Shown here: positions 5,214-12,941 of the stretch, piece after piece | Numbering within the stretch: position 1 is the first letter of the stretch | Layout: each line of letters begins with the position of its first letter | NCBI GenBank assembly: GCA_965223545.1 | Contig: OZ245006.1 | Location: 7,840,001-7,904,000 of the forward strand | Length of the DNA: 64,000 nucleotides | DNA from: Planctomycetota bacterium | GTDB taxonomy: Bacteria; Planctomycetota; UBA1135; UBA2386 | Direction of reading: 5' to 3' | The notes under the pieces: generated by a model | What the model was told of the DNA's origin: nothing | Databases searched by the model: none | Seen by the model: the letters and a program-made list of their open reading frames with translations, nothing else | Position numbers and translations under genes: made by a program

Positions 5214-5518
5214 GTAGGGTGTCCACGTTCGTCGAATCCGTGCGCGACGACATCGACGCCAGCCTGCAACGCTTCCTGGAGGAGGACACGCCGGAGATCC
5301 GCGCCATCGCGCACCGGCTCGTCGAGATCTCAGCAGAGGTCGCCGTGGACCGGATGACGGGCATCGATACGTCGGTGGCCGAGAGAGCGATCGCGGCGAC
5401 GTACCTCGAGCTCGCGAGCGCGACGAGCACCGAGACCGCCGCGGCGGTGGTGGGCCTGGCGACTCGGATCCTCAGGGGCGCAACCGGTGTTGCCCTACGG
5501 GTGGTGGCGGGGCTGTGA
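5210..5518 (+). CDS. Phage hypothetical helical protein
   Basis: ATGA and GTGA overlaps on both sides. Confidence 0.65.
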   Translation: MSRVSTFVESVRDDIDASLQRFLEEDTPEIRAIAHRLVEISAEVAVDRMTGIDTSVAERAIAATYLELASATSTETAAAVVGLATRILRGATGVALRVVAGL

Positions 5519-6075
5519 GCTTTCCCGAGCACATCGAGTGGCTCATCGGAGCGCTCACAGCGTTCGTCGCCGGCTGTGCCGCGGTCCTGAAGTCGCTGAA
5601 GGGGCTCCAGACCAAGGTTGATGAGGTCGCCTACGAGACGCAGCCGAACGGTGGGGAGTCAATGCGGGATGCGATCGACGAGATCGGCAAGCGCATCGCT
5701 CACCTGGAGGCTCGATCGGCCGCATCGATGCGCGCCATGCTCGATACGACTTCGGAGCCCTGGTGGGAGAGCGACGCCGAGGGCGAGTGCCTGTTCATCA
5801 ACCGCGCAATGGAGCGGCTGACGGGAATGGGCCGGTCAGAGGCTCGCGACCACGGGTGGGTGAGCTTCTTGCACGTCGATGATCGCGACGCCGTGCGTGA
5901 CGAGTGGTACAGCGCGGCGCGCGAGGGCCGCATGTTCGACATGCGGTATCGATACGTGAATCTGGCGACAGGCGATGTCCATCACGTGCACGCCGTTGCA
6001 CAGCACTACACCGTTGACGGTGTACGGCTCGGGTACTACGGGCGCGCGGTCGTCGAGTCCACGGACGAGCGGTAG
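5515..6075 (+). CDS. Membrane-anchored single PAS/PAC domain protein
   Basis: N-terminal TM helix, PNGGESMRDAID linker, then WESDAEGECLFINRAMERLTG..GWVSFLHVDDR PAS motifs. Confidence 0.85.
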   Translation: MSFPEHIEWLIGALTAFVAGCAAVLKSLKGLQTKVDEVAYETQPNGGESMRDAIDEIGKRIAHLEARSAASMRAMLDTTSEPWWESDAEGECLFINRAMERLTGMGRSEARDHGWVSFLHVDDRDAVRDEWYSAAREGRMFDMRYRYVNLATGDVHHVHAVAQHYTVDGVRLGYYGRAVVESTDER

Positions 6076-8544: not shown

Positions 8545-8900
8545 CGGAGTTCCTTGCGAAAGTGGTCTTGTTGGATGGAGGCGTCGAGGGCTAAGCCCGG
8601 GTCGTTCTCCGCCTGTCGAATCGCGCGGATTCCGTCGCGGATCGTCGCCGCAAGCTGAAGCAGTGCGGCTTGCCTTCTGCCGTGGGGCTCGCCCGGGGCC
8701 TGAATAATCGAGATGGCTTCACGAGCCGGAAGGCTTGTTCTGCTGCTCCGGCCGTCCCACTTGGCGAACGCATAGCCCGACCCGACCAACGGCGCCGCGC
8801 AAATCAGTATGACCAGCGCCGACCTCAGCGGCCCCGATCGGCGGCGCCTGGGTCGGAAGTCGTCTGGGTAGCGCTGCTCCACTCCCCAGCCCACTAGCAT
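8541..8900 (-). CDS. Single-TM hypothetical protein
   Basis: ATG at 8900 overlaps the repressor stop (TAATG); hydrophobic SALVILICAAPLVG segment. Confidence 0.6.
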   Translation of the reverse strand: MLVGWGVEQRYPDDFRPRRRRSGPLRSALVILICAAPLVGSGYAFAKWDGRSSRTSLPAREAISIIQAPGEPHGRRQAALLQLAATIRDGIRAIRQAENDPGLALDASIQQDHFRKELR

Positions 8901-9391
8901 TAGTTCGGGTCTCCCCTTTGCATCGCTGCCCACTGCTCCCATGCGCCGGGCGCGCGTTCCCGCACGTGCTCCTCACACTGCCGATGCAACGCCTCAGCCT
9001 CTTCCGGTGTGGTCACCCGGAAGGGTGTTGGCACAAGGAACGCAACCTGAAACGGGGGCAGGACCCTCTTGACCAACAGTCCGCGAGCATCCGCGTCGGC
9101 GTTCACGGCCAGCAAGCGTTGGGCGAGGGTTTCGTCAACGACAGCAACCCCACCGAGCAGCTCTGACGGAGGCGTGCCGAGGAGGTAGTTGGCGTCAACC
9201 CGACACCCCTTGCCCTGCAACAGGAGGACGAGGTCGGCCAAGTTGTCAGCGGGTGGTGTCGCCGAACCTGCTTCCCAGTTTTGGAGGGTTTTAAGGCCGA
9301 CGCGGATTGCCTCGGCGGCCTCCTTCTGCGTCAGCCGGGCCTGGCGACGCGCTTTTGCAAGCCGTTGACCGATCGCGATCCTGTCAACCAC
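8900..9391 (-). CDS. XRE-family HTH regulator (probable prophage repressor)
   Basis: IGQRLAKARRQARLTQKEAAEAIRVGLKTLQNWEAG..P; GTG start inferred at 9391. Confidence 0.85.
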   Translation of the reverse strand: MVDRIAIGQRLAKARRQARLTQKEAAEAIRVGLKTLQNWEAGSATPPADNLADLVLLLQGKGCRVDANYLLGTPPSELLGGVAVVDETLAQRLLAVNADADARGLLVKRVLPPFQVAFLVPTPFRVTTPEEAEALHRQCEEHVRERAPGAWEQWAAMQRGDPN

Positions 9392-9468
9392 GAGCGGGAA
9401 TGTCCCACCCGGGCCAGACTCCGGCAAGAACAGCCCCAACAAAACTGGGAAAGGGCGGAATGGTGCGC

Positions 9469-9496
9469 TTGACACACGCCAAAAAGTACGTATCCT
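9469..9496 (+). promoter_or_regulatory. Sigma70-type rightward early promoter
   Basis: TTGACA (9469-9474), 16-bp spacer, TATCCT (9491-9496); divergent from the repressor. Confidence 0.65.
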
Positions 9497-9646
9497 GCCC
9501 CCATCAGTCAAGCCCGGACATGATCCAAACCGCCCACTACGCCCCCGGAAGCCGCGATGCGATCGACATCGTGAGCGCGCAGAAAAACGCCGTAGAGGTG
9601 CTGAGCAGGTTGCAGTCATGGGCTCCGACAGGGAATCCCCGAGAGG

Positions 9647-9823
9647 ATGGTCTATCCCGATCAACGCTCAGTTGGCAGGGGCACGGACGCGCAATCTCGG
9701 GCGAAACCCTTCGCATGGGACGCGAACCCGCCGCGAGAAAGTATCGCAGCGGTCTACCGCAAGTTTGCGCGGCGACGCAAGTTGCGCTCTCGCAACCAGC
9801 TTCTGTCACTCTCCCTGGCCTGA
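9647..9823 (+). CDS. Putative 58-aa Arg-rich peptide (below the ORF track cutoff)
   Basis: MVYPDQ...YRKFARRRKLRSRNQLLSLSLA*; followed by a terminator-like hairpin. Confidence 0.35.
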   Translation: MVYPDQRSVGRGTDAQSRAKPFAWDANPPRESIAAVYRKFARRRKLRSRNQLLSLSLA

Positions 9824-9845
9824 ACGGGCTCCAGGAGGAACGTTC

Positions 9846-9873
9846 GCCGTCCCAGGGGCTGGACGACTTTTTT
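9846..9873 (+). terminator. Intrinsic terminator-like hairpin
   Basis: GCCGTCCCAG-GGG-CTGGACGAC followed by T6. Confidence 0.55.
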
Positions 9874-10044
9874 CACGAAATCCGCCGGGTCGGCAACCAG
9901 CCCGGCACCGCTCGACTCCTGGCCAGCACGACGGCGCGGAAGGTGCGCCAAAGCCGGTCAGAGTGGAGCACCTTGAACATGGCGCTGGCGCGCTGCTGCT
10001 CCGGCAGCAACGTCATGGGGCGCGCCAGCGCCGATCTTCCAGGA

Positions 10045-10177
10045 GCGGGGCACCACCCGGGCTACGGCCCGGCCCGCGAGGAACAAGTCGAAGCGGGTCA
10101 CCACCCGAGCCAAAAGCTCGGCCCGCTAGGAACAAGTCGCCGCGGGGCACTACCCAGGCTCGACCAGCCTGGCCCGC
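10045..10177 (+). ncRNA. Tandem array of three structured hairpin units (48-49 nt period); degenerate fourth unit at 10312-10359
   Basis: GCGGG-x-CAC(C/T)AC-[hairpin]-CCCGC units with GGAACAAGTC linkers; inner stems differ in sequence but stay paired. Confidence 0.65.
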
Positions 10178-10180
10178 ACC

Positions 10181-10238
10181 GTGTTCCGCTCTCCCCGATG
10201 CCTTCCGGTTTCGAGGAGAGCGGGGCGCGGGTCTTTTT
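10181..10238 (+). terminator. Terminator or attenuator directly after the hairpin array
   Basis: GTGTTCCGCTCTCC / GGAGAGCGGGGCGC stem with G-U pairs, then T5 at 10234-10238. Confidence 0.6.
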
Positions 10239-10452
10239 CAAGGCGGCGATGGCCGAGCCTCGCCCCTGTCGCTCACTCACTCTTCGCCGCTACCCACAGC
10301 TGACGTTAGTCGCGGGACTCACCACAAGTACACCGGCACCAGCCGCGGGGGAACAAGTCAGGCGAAGAGCAAGGTCGCGTCCAGGGGGTCATCGGCCCGG
10401 TCTGTCGACCGATCTCAACCTATACGCGGCCCCGTGGGAGGGGGCAAGGCGC

Positions 10453-10836
10453 ATGGAGAATTCCGACGTAGATCAGGTCGCCCGTATCGTCTCCTGGCAC
10501 TTCCGATTGCCGCTCGACGAGTTTCACGACCGCGAGGTCCGCACTCGCCAGGCGGTCGCGGCCCGCAGCGTGGCGATGGCTGTGCTGCACCGTTGCGATC
10601 CATGGGCGACGCAGCGTCGCATCGCGGAGGCGATGGGCTGCACCCACCAGACCGTTGGGAACGGCATGGCCCGTGCGCGCGGGACGTACGAGATCCAGCT
10701 CGAGCGTTGCGCGGAGGAGTTCGAGGCATGGCTCGAGCTGCGGGAACAGCGACGGGCTGAACAGCGGGCGGCGGAGCCGGTGGCTGAGGCTGGCGGTGAC
10801 GAGTTCGAGGCTGCGGAGCGGGAGGTCGAGGCGTGA
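10453..10836 (+). CDS. HTH protein resembling the DnaA C-terminal domain
   Basis: VARIVSWHF..R..AARSVAMAVL..IAEAMGCTHQTV pattern; ATG at 10453. Confidence 0.7.
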   Translation: MENSDVDQVARIVSWHFRLPLDEFHDREVRTRQAVAARSVAMAVLHRCDPWATQRRIAEAMGCTHQTVGNGMARARGTYEIQLERCAEEFEAWLELREQRRAEQRAAEPVAEAGGDEFEAAEREVEA

Positions 10837-11036
10837 TTCCGATCGACGAGATCGAGTCGTCGCATGGAAAGCATGCGACACGTGAGAAAGGCGTCTGCCT
10901 CATGGAGGCTGTGGCCTGGTGGCAGGGCGAAGAGCACTCGGACATGCCGGAGTGTGTGTGCTCAGTGATCTTCTTCGCCTCCAACGAGGGTGCGATGGCG
11001 GACTTGGAAGCGTGTGCGGCGGAGGCGGGGGCTTAG
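10833..11036 (+). CDS. Small Cys/His phage protein, possibly truncated
   Basis: GKH..GVCLMEAVAW..GEEHSDMPECVC; GTGA coupling. Confidence 0.5.
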   Translation: MIPIDEIESSHGKHATREKGVCLMEAVAWWQGEEHSDMPECVCSVIFFASNEGAMADLEACAAEAGA

Positions 11037-11040
11037 GGCT

Positions 11041-11487
11041 ATGATGTCAACGCTGAGCAAGTGCCGTTTCTGCCGCAACGGGAAAGTCCTGTTGACGAGG
11101 ACAGATCGCGGGTGGCGACACGTGACCGCTGATGGTCGGCATTGCCGCTGCACTGACCTCAGTCGGGCTACACGGAGCTTGGTGTGGTCCCGCGGGCACA
11201 GGCATCTGGACCGTTGGGGGTGGAACAGCGGGGTTCCGCTGTATTTCATTGAGCTGCTCACCCCCTCGCGAGACGACACGGACCGTCGCGAGTTGTCGAT
11301 CGAATGGGCAGCCCACTGGAGTAAGGTGGTCGGTAGGTTTACGCCAACGCTGCGGGCGAAAGATCTTTGCGAACTGCAGGAGGAGTGTCGGCGGGACTGG
11401 TGTCAATTATCCACCCTGCAGCGAGAGGACATCCTTGCGTCTGAGCGTCGAGCGATGTGGGAACAGAATGCATTGAGGGGCGCTTAG
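11041..11487 (+). CDS. Phage hypothetical protein with CxxC...CxC
   Basis: CRFC..CRC; fills the gap between early genes. Confidence 0.5.
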   Translation: MMSTLSKCRFCRNGKVLLTRTDRGWRHVTADGRHCRCTDLSRATRSLVWSRGHRHLDRWGWNSGVPLYFIELLTPSRDDTDRRELSIEWAAHWSKVVGRFTPTLRAKDLCELQEECRRDWCQLSTLQREDILASERRAMWEQNALRGA

Positions 11488-11491
11488 GGCT

Positions 11492-11776
11492 GTGGCAACC
11501 CACCGACAGCCGCGGCCGATCATGCGGACCGCCGAGATTGCGAGGGACTACGGGATCACCGTCTCCGACATTCGGGCCATGGAGCGCATGGGGCAGTTCG
11601 TTGCGATCCAGTGGACAAGCCAGCGTGCCGGCTTTGTCTGCCGTGCTGACTTCTTGCGGTGGTGGGACACGCGTGACGAACGCTGTCGCCAACGCATCGA
11701 ATCCGAGCGCCGCCGCGAGCAGGCGATCACCCACCCAGGGACGACCGCTTATGACTTTCTCTCTTCCTCCAAGTGA
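11492..11776 (+). CDS. Excisionase-like HTH protein
   Basis: MRTAEIARDYGITVSDIRAM; convergent with and overlapping the integrase. Confidence 0.6.
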   Translation: MATHRQPRPIMRTAEIARDYGITVSDIRAMERMGQFVAIQWTSQRAGFVCRADFLRWWDTRDERCRQRIESERRREQAITHPGTTAYDFLSSSK

Positions 11777-12806
11777 TCGGCTGGATCGCGCGCCGAGCGT
11801 CGCGTCCGACGATACGCGCGTAGTGGCGAGCCATCGAGAGACTGCGGTGTCCGAGCATCTCAGCGATCTGGAACTCGGAGGCTCCGCTCATGGCCATGAT
11901 CGTTCCGAGTGTGTGGCGCAACGCGTGGCAATGCAGTCGTGGCTCACCCAGGCGTTTGCTCCAACGTTTCATCATCGAGAGCAACCCGGAGTAGGAGAGT
12001 GGAAGGAGCGATGCTTGCGGAGTCGCTGGTCCGCGCAGCGCGAGCAGCTCCCGGAACGCGGTTCGCGCATCCTCGTGCAGCGGCACGGTACGCGGTCCTC
12101 GCTTGCCGTGCGGCACCTCAAGCACTCCGCGACGCAGCTGCAGGTGCTCGAGGCGGGCATCCGCGGCCTCGCGCAGGCGGAGCCCGGTCATCAGAAGCAA
12201 CTCGATGATGAGTGCATCACGATCGGAGTTGATGCGCGCGTCACCCTCCCAGCGGCGAATCGCTCGAAGGCCGAGTCGGACCTCGGTGGGGCCGAACCAG
12301 TCGATCTTCGGGGGAGGAGCATCGGGCAAGAACGCGAGGACGCGCTTCAGAGGACTCGGCACACCAGCGACGACGAAACACCGGCCAAGCGCTCGGAGGT
12401 CGGCTCGCACGGTCGACCAGGAGACGGTCTGCGCGCGACGTCTCGCGAACGACTCGATGGCCTCAGGCGTCAGTTGGTAGAGCGCGGGGTTCTCAGGGAA
12501 CTCGCGGGCGAGGAGTTGGAATCGTTCGACGTACCACTGGTGCGTGCGCGGCTTGCGTTCTTTGCGCTCGCAGAGTTCGAGGGCGAGACGCATCGCGCCG
12601 GCGAGCGACATGGGGTCCGGAGGGATGACCCTCTCGCGATGTCGCATTCGCTCGAGGTCGGCGAGCGCTTCGGCTACCGTTGCCCTCGCTGGGCTTGGCA
12701 GCTGTCGACCGTGCTCGAAGACTCGGGCCTTGTAGACGAAGCCGTTCTTGCGGGTGCGAACCTGGATTCCGGCGGGGACTCTCGGCAGCTTCCGACGCGT
12801 GGCCAT
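11727..12806 (-). CDS. int: Tyrosine recombinase/integrase
   Basis: TGLRLRE, HGK, HALRH, LGH and ARHY catalytic motifs; adjacent to the tRNA fragment. Confidence 0.95.
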   Translation of the reverse strand: MATRRKLPRVPAGIQVRTRKNGFVYKARVFEHGRQLPSPARATVAEALADLERMRHRERVIPPDPMSLAGAMRLALELCERKERKPRTHQWYVERFQLLAREFPENPALYQLTPEAIESFARRRAQTVSWSTVRADLRALGRCFVVAGVPSPLKRVLAFLPDAPPPKIDWFGPTEVRLGLRAIRRWEGDARINSDRDALIIELLLMTGLRLREAADARLEHLQLRRGVLEVPHGKRGPRTVPLHEDARTAFRELLALRGPATPQASLLPLSYSGLLSMMKRWSKRLGEPRLHCHALRHTLGTIMAMSGASEFQIAEMLGHRSLSMARHYARIVGRDARRAIQPITWRKRESHKRSSLGG

Positions 12807-12896
12807 GCTCCATTTGTACCGCGCATCTGTACCGCGGCAAGGCGGGATAGCCGTGGACGGGCGCGAGAAGGCGTCTCCGGTCAATACGGCCGACAG

Positions 12897-12941
12897 CTGT
12901 TAATCAGTGGGTCGCAAGTTCGAGTCTTGCTCGGGGAGCCA
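12897..12941 (+). other. attR core: 3' half of tRNA-Asn(GTT)
   Basis: CTGTTAA anticodon loop, GCAAG-TTCGAGT-CTTGC T-arm and TCGGGGAGCCA end; the 5' half is absent. Confidence 0.88.

What the first reader, a model, noticed from the sequence alone, without database searches (positions are those of the whole stretch)
10045..10359. Tandem array of covarying hairpin units in the prophage early leader
Seen: three units start at 10045, 10093 and 10142. Each reads GCGGG-(G/T)CAC(C/T)AC-[inner hairpin]-CCCGC, and they are joined by linkers containing AGGAACAAGTCG. The inner stems differ in sequence yet stay paired: CCGGGC-TACG-GCCCGG, CCGAGC-CAAAA-GCTCGG and CCAGGCT-CGACC-AGCCTGG. The spacing is 48 then 49 nt, which breaks the reading frame, so this is not a protein repeat. 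A degenerate fourth unit (GCGGGACTCACCAC...CCGC..GGAACAAGTC) sits at 10312-10359. Inference: a modular structured RNA, or ssDNA element, that I cannot assign to a known family. It could be a put/nut-like antiterminator, an array processed into small RNAs (as in type III antitoxins or P4 CI-type immunity), or a GGA-presenting CsrA sponge.
Basis: partly seen in the sequence, partly recalled or inferred. Interest (0 to 1): 0.85.

Follow-up and report, generated by a model that had tools for sequence, protein, structure and literature searches.

The report
Prophage RNA array mimicking gene starts
A prophage carries a real tandem array of bulged RNA hairpins whose two repeated signal words also mark the translation starts of several distant genes of the same prophage, so the array likely acts as a multi-site decoy RNA for a phage regulator of those genes, a role not yet tested.

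Summary
The array is real: three bulged hairpins at 10045, 10093 and 10142, a terminator-like hairpin at 10179-10239, and a degenerate fourth unit. It lies behind a near-consensus promoter facing away from the repressor gene of a 77.5-kb prophage. No Rfam family or outside homologue was found.

Each unit shows two single-stranded words, box A (CACCAC) and box B (AGGAACAAG). A two-box pattern defined from the array hits 5 times in the 8.1-Mb genome, all in this prophage. Three gene starts 45-60 kb away carry box A in a hairpin loop and box B as the ribosome-binding site: a VIPR-like gene and two starts in the recombination operon. A fourth, probably leaderless gene begins with both boxes.

Best reading (0.45): a sense-strand multi-site decoy for a phage translational repressor, possibly the adjacent helix-turn-helix protein. 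Main rival (0.2): the opposite strand is a c4-like antisense RNA array. CsrA sponge and type III antitoxin fail their tests. The ligand, strand and expression are untested, and the covariation among three units is not significant. The evidence is from one genome.

The parts
9469..9496 (+). Rightward sigma70-type promoter (TTGACA-16-TATCCT), predicted source of the array transcript
   Evidence: 10 of 12 consensus matches; the only hit in 9000-11000, shuffles give 0.1
9483..9511 (-). Overlapping leftward promoter candidate (TTGACT-17-TACTTT) for the repressor gene
   Evidence: pattern scan; inferred
8900..9391 (-). XRE-type prophage repressor gene (start codon inferred)
   Evidence: PHROG repressor families E 6e-8, Pfam HTH_3/HTH_19
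9848..9874 (+). Weak terminator-like hairpin t1; its tail can pair with box B at 10 of 11 positions, probably chance
10045..10077 (+). Unit U1: bulged hairpin, box A (CACCAC, 10051-10056) in the bulge, UACG loop closed by C-G
10078..10092 (+). Linker 1 with box B (AGGAACAAG, 10079-10087); no start codon follows
10093..10126 (+). Unit U2: bulged hairpin, box A at 10099-10104
10127..10141 (+). Linker 2 with box B (10128-10136); 13 nt identical to the start of the leaderless gene at site S4
10142..10177 (+). Unit U3: bulged hairpin, variant box A (CACTAC, 10148-10153)
10179..10239 (+). Long hairpin (-41.6 kcal/mol, 4 G-U pairs) with U-rich tail: predicted intrinsic terminator
   Evidence: not listed by the simple terminator scan, whose loop limit it exceeds
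10312..10359 (+). Unit U4: box A (10320-10325) in a 3-bp hairpin loop and box B variant (10349-10357), in the leader of the HTH gene
10453..10836 (+). 127-aa DnaA-C-terminal-type HTH protein; candidate ligand, binding untested
   Evidence: Pfam Bac_DnaA_C E 3.5e-6, below cut-off; atlas phage Bac_DnaA_C clusters 0.93; best PDB match DnaA-DBD, E 0.19, from a low-confidence model
9520..10836 (+). 438-codon open frame running through array and terminator, in frame with the HTH gene; reality uncertain
   Evidence: 9520-10452 stays open in 0.8% of shuffles in a given frame and 2.1% in any of three; no homologue of the N-part
11492..11776 (+). Excisionase-like gene at the end of the same rightward gene row
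   Evidence: phrog_66 E 1e-5
11727..12884 (-). Tyrosine integrase
   Evidence: phrog_1 E 1e-38, PF00589
12897..12941 (+). attR: 45-bp exact repeat of the 3' part of a tRNA gene 77.5 kb upstream (attL at C1:7775442-7775486)

Best explanation
The array is likely a sense-strand decoy RNA: it repeats the two words (box A, box B) found at the translation starts of distant genes of the same prophage and would soak up a phage-encoded translational repressor of those genes. SHOWN in sequence: the units, the promoter- and terminator-like flanks, and the boxes at sites S1 (C1:7790736, vipr-like gene), S2 (7803701, first gene behind a TTGACT-16-GATACT promoter of the recombination operon), S3 (7804436, head of an overlapping ORF pair ahead of the RecE/YqaJ-like gene) and S4 (7803342 minus strand, a probably leaderless 86-aa gene). 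INFERRED: when the repressor lifts, the early promoter makes an RNA of about 735 nt ending at 10239 with three exposed copies of box A and two of box B, none followed by a start codon. INFERRED: a protein that reads box A in a loop or bulge and box B on the ribosome-binding site blocks translation at S1-S4, and the array titrates it, setting a threshold or delay for early lytic genes. SPECULATIVE: the protein is the adjacent DnaA-C-type HTH protein (with U4 in its own leader) or the XRE repressor, and binding may also tip termination at 10179-10239.
For: The pattern was fixed from the array before the targets were seen. CAC[CT]AC-N20-27-GGAACAAG hits 5 times on both strands of 8,105,304 bases, 5 of 5 in the prophage: 3 in the array plus S1 and S3. 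AGGAACAAG: 6 of 44 genome copies are in the prophage against 0.37 expected (P 2.5e-6); followed by a start codon, 3 of 7 against 0.04 (P 9e-6). The only 6-mer shared by the 45 nt upstream of those three starts is CACCAC; 5e-6 of random triples share it. It sits in hairpin loops with unrelated stems of 10, 5 and 5 bp, against 6 of 58 other CACCAC in the prophage with stems of 5 bp or more. The S1 stem has 3 G-U pairs and is unremarkable as DNA (z -0.5). The A...B...ATG pattern occurs once each in 3 of 400 other genomes of the phylum, none with CACCAC in a loop, against 3 times here. For the plus strand: promoter, terminator with G-U pairs and U tail, and a C(UACG)G loop. Multi-copy design is the logic of CsrB/RsmZ (recalled). 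Phage HTH proteins binding 5'-UTR stem-loops to block ribosomes are documented for Aca2 (PMC13551039, passages), and RegA represses about 30 mRNAs at their starts (PMC3014915, passages).
Against: No ligand is identified, and nothing shows that the HTH protein binds RNA. There are no expression data. No homologous array was found anywhere, so there is no evolutionary test. All 34 base pairs of U1-U3 are Watson-Crick, so the minus strand folds as well and exposes the complementary words. The target layout (upstream word plus word on the ribosome-binding site) is that described for c4 antisense targets. Both variant positions (U3 box A, U4 box B) would be G-U tolerant for an antisense partner. 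41% of the 61 CACCAC in the prophage are accessible anyway. In the folded full array, box B costs 3.5-3.9 kcal/mol to open. S2 and S4 were recognised after the fact, with a different spacing or order.
Confidence: 0.45

Rival explanations
1. The opposite strand is the functional RNA: a tandem array of c4/CI-like antisense modules. Its bulge (complement of box A) would pair with the target loop and its single-stranded tail (complement of box B) would cover the ribosome-binding site, silencing S1-S4 in the lysogen.
For: c4 b' occludes the ribosome-binding site while a' binds upstream (PMC5320573, passages), the same layout as S1-S3. Single minus-strand units fold and leave both words open, 0.1 kcal/mol each for one unit. 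S4 offers 11-13 contiguous pairs to the tail. The only places in the prophage with both complementary words are the minus strand of the array and the plus strand at S4.
Against: No phage-type promoter was found on the minus strand to the right of the array. Promoter, terminator G-U pairs and the UNCG loop favour the plus strand. The U3 variant would mismatch as an antisense word. No Rfam C4 match. Known c4 and CI are co-directional with their targets and single copy.
Confidence: 0.2
2. A cis-acting attenuator or put/nut-like element: the units bind a factor or RNA polymerase and decide read-through of the terminator into the HTH-excisionase genes, with S1-S4 as further loading sites.
For: It lies between the early promoter and a strong terminator. 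While the terminator 3' arm is unmade, the lowest-energy fold pairs 10042-10053 with the terminator 5' arm, about 11 kcal/mol better than separate folds. The full terminator then wins by 10.5. An open frame crosses the terminator (2% by chance), recalling read-through control at Gifsy-1 isrK-orf45 (PMC4825925, passages).
Against: The antiterminator duplex is no better than shuffles (144 of 300 and 63 of 300). Holding box A open leaves a 9-bp version of it. Box B is placed as the ribosome-binding site in S1-S3, which points to translation.
Confidence: 0.14
3. The sense array is a sponge or target for an antisense RNA made elsewhere in the prophage, such as plus-strand read-through across the start of the S4 gene.
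For: The plus strand at C1:7803325 carries both complementary words in a row. Variants in U3 and U4 are wobble-compatible with it.
Against: No promoter or defined small RNA is evident there. The box-A complement is buried, 7.6 kcal/mol to open. The site is more simply the start of a real gene on the other strand.
Confidence: 0.09
4. The boxes are DNA sites or merely a phage-preferred ribosome-binding signal (like mycobacteriophage start-associated sequences), and the array is a DNA titration site for the DnaA-like HTH protein or a leftover duplication.
For: The neighbour resembles the DnaA DNA-binding domain. Start-associated sequences of unknown function exist (PMC3203893, passages). AAGGAAC-like ribosome sites are common before vipr homologues. 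Covariation is not significant.
Against: Spacing between the boxes varies (15-26 nt). Box A is kept single-stranded by unrelated stems with G-U pairs, and the array stems are perfectly paired despite sequence change.
Confidence: 0.08
5. CsrA/RsmA sponge or type III toxin-antitoxin repeat.
For: GGA is in each linker and at the ribosome-binding sites. A repeat array followed by a terminator and a gene is the type III layout (recalled).
Against: No CsrA (PF02599) in the genome, 91% complete; the control rang in 3 of 14 genomes. Conservation extends beyond GGA and includes box A. No ToxN/AbiQ-like family among neighbouring ORFs.
Confidence: 0.04

Closest known systems
CsrB/RsmZ-type protein-titrating small RNAs
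   Same: Several copies of a signal that also overlaps target ribosome-binding sites, held single-stranded in a stable RNA ending in a terminator (family features recalled).
   Different: Bipartite phage-specific signal (CACCAC + AGGAACAAG); GGA in linkers, not loops; no CsrA in the genome; targets confined to one prophage.
P1/P7 c4 antisense RNA (RF01695) and P4 CI RNA
   Same: Phage immunity-type region; targets have an upstream word plus a word on the ribosome-binding site; structured RNA with terminator and an open frame across it.
   Different: The array is same-sense as the mRNA sites, tandem, not three-stemmed, with no Rfam match; targets are dispersed over 60 kb instead of flanking.
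Aca2 and T4 RegA translational repressors
   Same: A phage protein blocking ribosome binding at several mRNAs; Aca2 is an HTH protein reading 5'-UTR hairpins.
   Different: No cognate protein is identified here; no multi-site decoy RNA appears in the passages I read.
Start-associated sequences (SAS/ESAS) of Cluster K mycobacteriophages
   Same: Asymmetric phage-specific word containing the Shine-Dalgarno core plus extra conserved bases, at starts of non-structural genes, with an upstream companion element.
   Different: Only 3-4 sites; the companion is a loop word in RNA hairpins, whereas ESAS repeats were judged DNA sites; here a start-less tandem array of the same words exists.
HK022 put / lambda nut; STAXI motif
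   Same: Tandem structures in a phage early leader before a terminator; STAXI is a 2-3-fold repeat near DNA-handling genes.
   Different: No Rfam match; no pseudoknot partner seen; the words recur as ribosome-binding sites.

Membership tests
CsrB/RsmZ sRNA | Cognate CsrA/RsmA protein in the host or phage | tested here: not met
   PF02599: 0 matches in G000 (91% complete); controls positive in 3 of 14 genomes
CsrB/RsmZ sRNA | Repeated GGA in hairpin loops (recalled) | tested here: not met
   GGA lies in the linkers; the loops are UACG, CAAAA, CGACC
CsrB/RsmZ sRNA | Repeated motif also overlaps ribosome-binding sites of targets | tested here: met
   S1-S3
c4 antisense RNA (RF01695) | Covariance-model match / three-stem fold | tested here: not met
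   No match in the window or in 70 kb of the upstream prophage
c4 / P4 CI antisense immunity | RNA complementary to targets on the same transcript, upstream and downstream | tested here: not met
   No site with both complementary words on the plus strand 9490-12900
c4 / P4 CI antisense immunity | Target with an upstream specificity word and a word on the ribosome-binding site | tested here: met
   S1-S3, compared with passages of PMC5320573
c4 / P4 CI antisense immunity | RNase P processing to a stable small RNA | not testable with these tools
   No RNA data available
Type III toxin-antitoxin antitoxin | Adjacent ToxN/CptN/TenpN-type endoribonuclease gene | tested here: not met
   Pfam, PHROG and PADLOC scans of neighbouring ORFs
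Type III toxin-antitoxin antitoxin | Tandem repeats followed by a terminator before the gene (recalled) | tested here: met
put/nut antiterminator | Located between the early promoter and an early terminator | tested here: met
put/nut antiterminator | Processive antitermination via RNA polymerase or an N-like protein | not testable with these tools
   needs transcription assays
Attenuator | Specific antiterminator helix exclusive with the terminator | tested here: inconclusive
   Predicted but not better than shuffles
Aca2-type HTH translational repression | HTH protein binds the 5'-UTR RNA motif of its operon | not testable with these tools
   HTH gene follows U4; binding untested
SAS of Cluster K phages | Asymmetric phage-specific word at starts of non-structural genes, rare in the host | tested here: met
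   the sequence is unrelated to the Cluster K word
STAXI motif | Repeated pseudoknot | tested here: not met
   No Rfam match; bulge and linker are not complementary
VIPR vrRNA | 5-nt period of conserved 3-mer plus variable 2-mer | tested here: not met
   The array has a 48-49-nt period; 5-nt arrays lie elsewhere in the prophage

The most novel reading that the evidence does not exclude
A temperate phage runs its own complete post-transcriptional circuit. An unrecognised RNA-binding repressor reads a bipartite loop-plus-Shine-Dalgarno code on dispersed early genes, including its VIPR anti-competitor system and recombination genes. A dedicated tandem decoy RNA from the main lytic promoter titrates that repressor and gates its own terminator. 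This would be a phage-built Csr-like switch with unrelated parts, working beside the DNA repressor.
Probability: 0.3. Interest if true: 0.88.

Novelty: new variant of a known kind. Interest (0 to 1): 0.7.

Why it matters
Phage lysis-lysogeny switches are known mainly as DNA repressor circuits, with a few single antisense RNAs. An array that repeats the start signal of dispersed phage genes links one RNA to a small regulon and makes a compact, testable prediction: which leaders are controlled, by which two words, and in which orientation the array acts. It would also suggest a function for unexplained start-associated sequences in other phages, and it ties expression of a VIPR-like system to the phage switch. 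Either main outcome, protein decoy or tandem antisense array, has no precedent in my literature searches.

Tried and rejected
Rfam: nothing at gathering score in the window, 7 sub-threshold chance hits in 9400-10600, and only the att tRNA in 70 kb upstream.

DNA homologues: best E 1.5e-4 over 34 nt in 90 family genomes. The one match over U1 lacks the boxes. A covariance model of the four units gave best E 0.028 in those 90 genomes and nothing under E 0.29 in the rest of the prophage and contig C2. GenBank phages gave only 27-42-nt chance matches.

A box-independent tandem descriptor over 2.5 Mb of fetched loci found 5 copies of one exact 39-nt duplication without linker.

Protein anchors: no relatives for the HTH ORF, repressor, integrase, the N-part of the long frame or the S4 gene. 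The atlas lead DUF1403 (0.93) for the N-part was not confirmed by Pfam. Leaders of vipr homologues: 0 of 102 distinct leaders have both boxes (4 have A, 2 have B), so the code is not part of VIPR loci in general.

Sequencing runs: no RNA holder listed. Four small-share runs gave 7 near-identical ~150-nt fragments and one unrelated partial match, none over the array.

VIPR-like guides had no convincing target in this genome under the one-skip rule (best 29 of 40). A tRNA-acceptor mimic in the slipped U1/U2 register was dropped because U2/U3 does not keep it. One folding constraint failed (returned 0) and was replaced. Earlier-findings look-ups gave nothing relevant. The primary paper on P4 nested-gene control could not be read, so that parallel rests on PMC4825925 and recall. 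Supplements of the bioRxiv VIPR papers were not seen and may list this VIPR type.

Full report
OBSERVATION. Each folds into a 5-bp outer stem, a 7-nt 5' bulge and a 6-7-bp inner hairpin. The region folds far better than shuffles (z -5.1). This fold, searched without regard to sequence, occurs 88 times in the genome, and only here as a cluster of three. Covariation proper is thin: 2 of 11 pairs change on both sides, matched by 109 of 500 shuffles. The fourth unit keeps the two conserved words but not the fold. Two nucleotides after U3 begins a -41.6 kcal/mol hairpin with four G-U pairs and a U-rich tail (10179-10239), a predicted terminator.

CONTEXT. The window is C1:7840001-7904000 of G000. 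A 45-bp exact repeat of a tRNA 3' part marks a 77.5-kb prophage from C1:7775442 to window 12941. At its right end an XRE repressor gene points left. A 10/12 sigma70 promoter at 9469-9496 points right through the array to a DnaA-C-type HTH gene, small ORFs and an excisionase-like gene, converging on the integrase. One frame is open from 9520 to 10836. Shuffles keep 9520-10452 open in 0.8% of cases for a given frame and 2.1% for any of three. Codon usage over the array is not gene-like and the N-terminal part has no homologue, so I leave its reality open.

THE KEY RESULT. From the units I defined box A, CAC(C/T)AC in the bulge, and box B, (A)GGAACAAG in the linker, 23-24 nt apart, and then scanned the prophage and genome. 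The pattern hits 5 times in 8.1 Mb, all in the prophage: three in the array and two at gene starts. AGGAACAAG is enriched there (6 of 44 copies, 0.37 expected; one of the six lies inside a coding region). It precedes a start codon three times (0.04 expected). These sites are S1, before a 188-aa phrog_4652 protein followed by 5-nt-period arrays, which matches the description of VIPR loci; S2, before the first gene behind a strong promoter of the operon holding the RecE/YqaJ-like gene; and S3, before a 33-aa ORF that overlaps a 78-aa ORF just ahead of that gene. In all three, CACCAC lies 15-26 nt upstream in a hairpin loop, and it is the only shared 6-mer. The stems are unrelated in sequence, and the S1 stem has three G-U pairs. 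Six of the 58 other CACCAC in the prophage have such stems, although 41% of all 61 are accessible by opening energy. A fourth site, S4, is the start of an 86-aa gene 7 nt behind a promoter-like -10 box; it begins with box B then box A and shares 13 nt with linker 2. In 400 other genomes of the phylum the A-B-ATG pattern occurs three times singly, without the loop. So the array carries start-less copies of a code that marks the translation starts of dispersed, non-structural genes of the same phage.

MECHANISM. Array and mRNA sites are the same sense if the array is read from the rightward promoter, which the promoter, the terminator's G-U pairs and a UNCG loop favour. A same-sense, multi-copy, start-less RNA is best read as a decoy. 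The variable spacing and unrelated stems point to recognition of single-stranded RNA, and box B on the ribosome-binding site points to translational control. I therefore favour titration of a phage translational repressor (0.45). Aca2 gives a precedent for an HTH protein in that role (PMC13551039; abstract and passages) and RegA for a multi-target repressor (PMC3014915; passages). The neighbouring HTH protein is only a candidate: it groups with phage Bac_DnaA_C clusters, its model is of low confidence (pLDDT 61) and its best structural match is DnaA-DBD at E 0.19.

RIVALS. The unit stems contain no G-U pair, so the minus strand folds as well and exposes the complements. The target layout equals that described for c4 (PMC5320573; passages). 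An antisense array is therefore a serious rival (0.2), weakened by the lack of a minus-strand promoter. Attenuation (0.14) is suggested by folding snapshots in which the U1 5' end captures the terminator 5' arm, but that duplex is no better than shuffles and survives opening box A. An antisense RNA from the plus strand at S4 (0.09) lacks a promoter and buries one word. DNA-level or neutral readings (0.08) have the SAS precedent (PMC3203893; passages). CsrA sponge and type III antitoxin (0.04) fail direct tests.

COMPARISON AND NOVELTY. No Rfam family matches. It works like CsrB/RsmZ or like c4/CI but is a member of neither by the features tested. P4 CI pairs with complementary flanks (PMC4825925; passages) and STAXI is a repeated pseudoknot (PMC2864571; one section and passages); neither holds here. 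Literature searches found no phage multi-site decoy of this kind (listings only unless stated), within a library that lacks most subscription papers. For VIPR I read parts 1-2 of 6 of bioRxiv 10.64898/2026.04.26.720920 and passages of 10.64898/2026.10.15.759431 and 10.64898/2026.10.21.760802. Features of CsrB, put/nut and type III antitoxins are recalled, not read.

LIMITS. The element is known from one prophage. No homologue of the array or of its neighbouring proteins was found, so there is no conservation or covariation test, and there are no expression data. The link between array and gene starts is statistically strong and was predicted before it was seen for S1 and S3. What binds the boxes, and on which strand the array acts, is inference.

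VERDICT. A real structured element and the likely hub of a small phage post-transcriptional regulon; new variant of a known kind; interest 0.70.

Noticed in passing
L001:10776-12940 (G000:C1:7790776-7792940): VIPR-like locus: a 188-aa phrog_4652 protein, a 175-aa accessory ORF and about eleven runs of 5-nt repeats with a non-canonical CGC core. No target was found in this genome. 1071 protein relatives were counted, and many homologous loci show CGC- or GGC-core repeats upstream.
   Followed up: partly
L003:1806-2106 (between scaffold and major capsid genes): A strongly folded 300-nt intergenic region (z -5.2) with two hairpins sharing an 11-nt word that contains the complement of box A, mostly paired on the plus strand. 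Possibly a capsid-leader or packaging element, or a weak antisense lead.
   Followed up: partly
L002:3345-3680: Divergent promoter pair (TTGACT-16-TAGGAT leftward, TTGACT-16-GATACT rightward), each with GCGCAAAGTC beside the -35 box: probable operators.
   Followed up: no
window 11027-11043 and 11478-11494: A second repeated start-associated word in front of two early ORFs (family D6).
   Followed up: no
window 9500-10044: The leader upstream of the array is also highly structured (whole 9500-10460 z -5.3), including a 13-bp stem at 9981-10032 with an inner hairpin and a 3' bulge.
   Followed up: partly
G000:C2 (L004, L005): The second contig (39.6 kb) looks like a separate phage genome with head, tail and recombination genes; it lacks the two-box code.
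   Followed up: partly
L003:12706-13616: A gene pair resembling a phage-associated antitoxin and a Doc/Fic-type toxin, inserted among tail genes (by eye; not scanned).
   Followed up: no
L001:3839-4405 and L002:10270-10839: The prophage carries an RNA ligase (RLIG1/phrog_14301) and a truncated cysteinyl-tRNA-synthetase-like ORF.
   Followed up: no
window 5515-6075: A holin-position membrane protein fused to a PAS domain.
   Followed up: no
L416 and L412: AGGAACAAG flanks short GGC-core repeat tracts in two viral contigs, resembling vrRNA separators; link to box B unknown.
   Followed up: no
L177:4239-4320 (also L179-L182): An exact 39-nt tandem duplication of a bulged hairpin near vipr homologues.
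   Followed up: no
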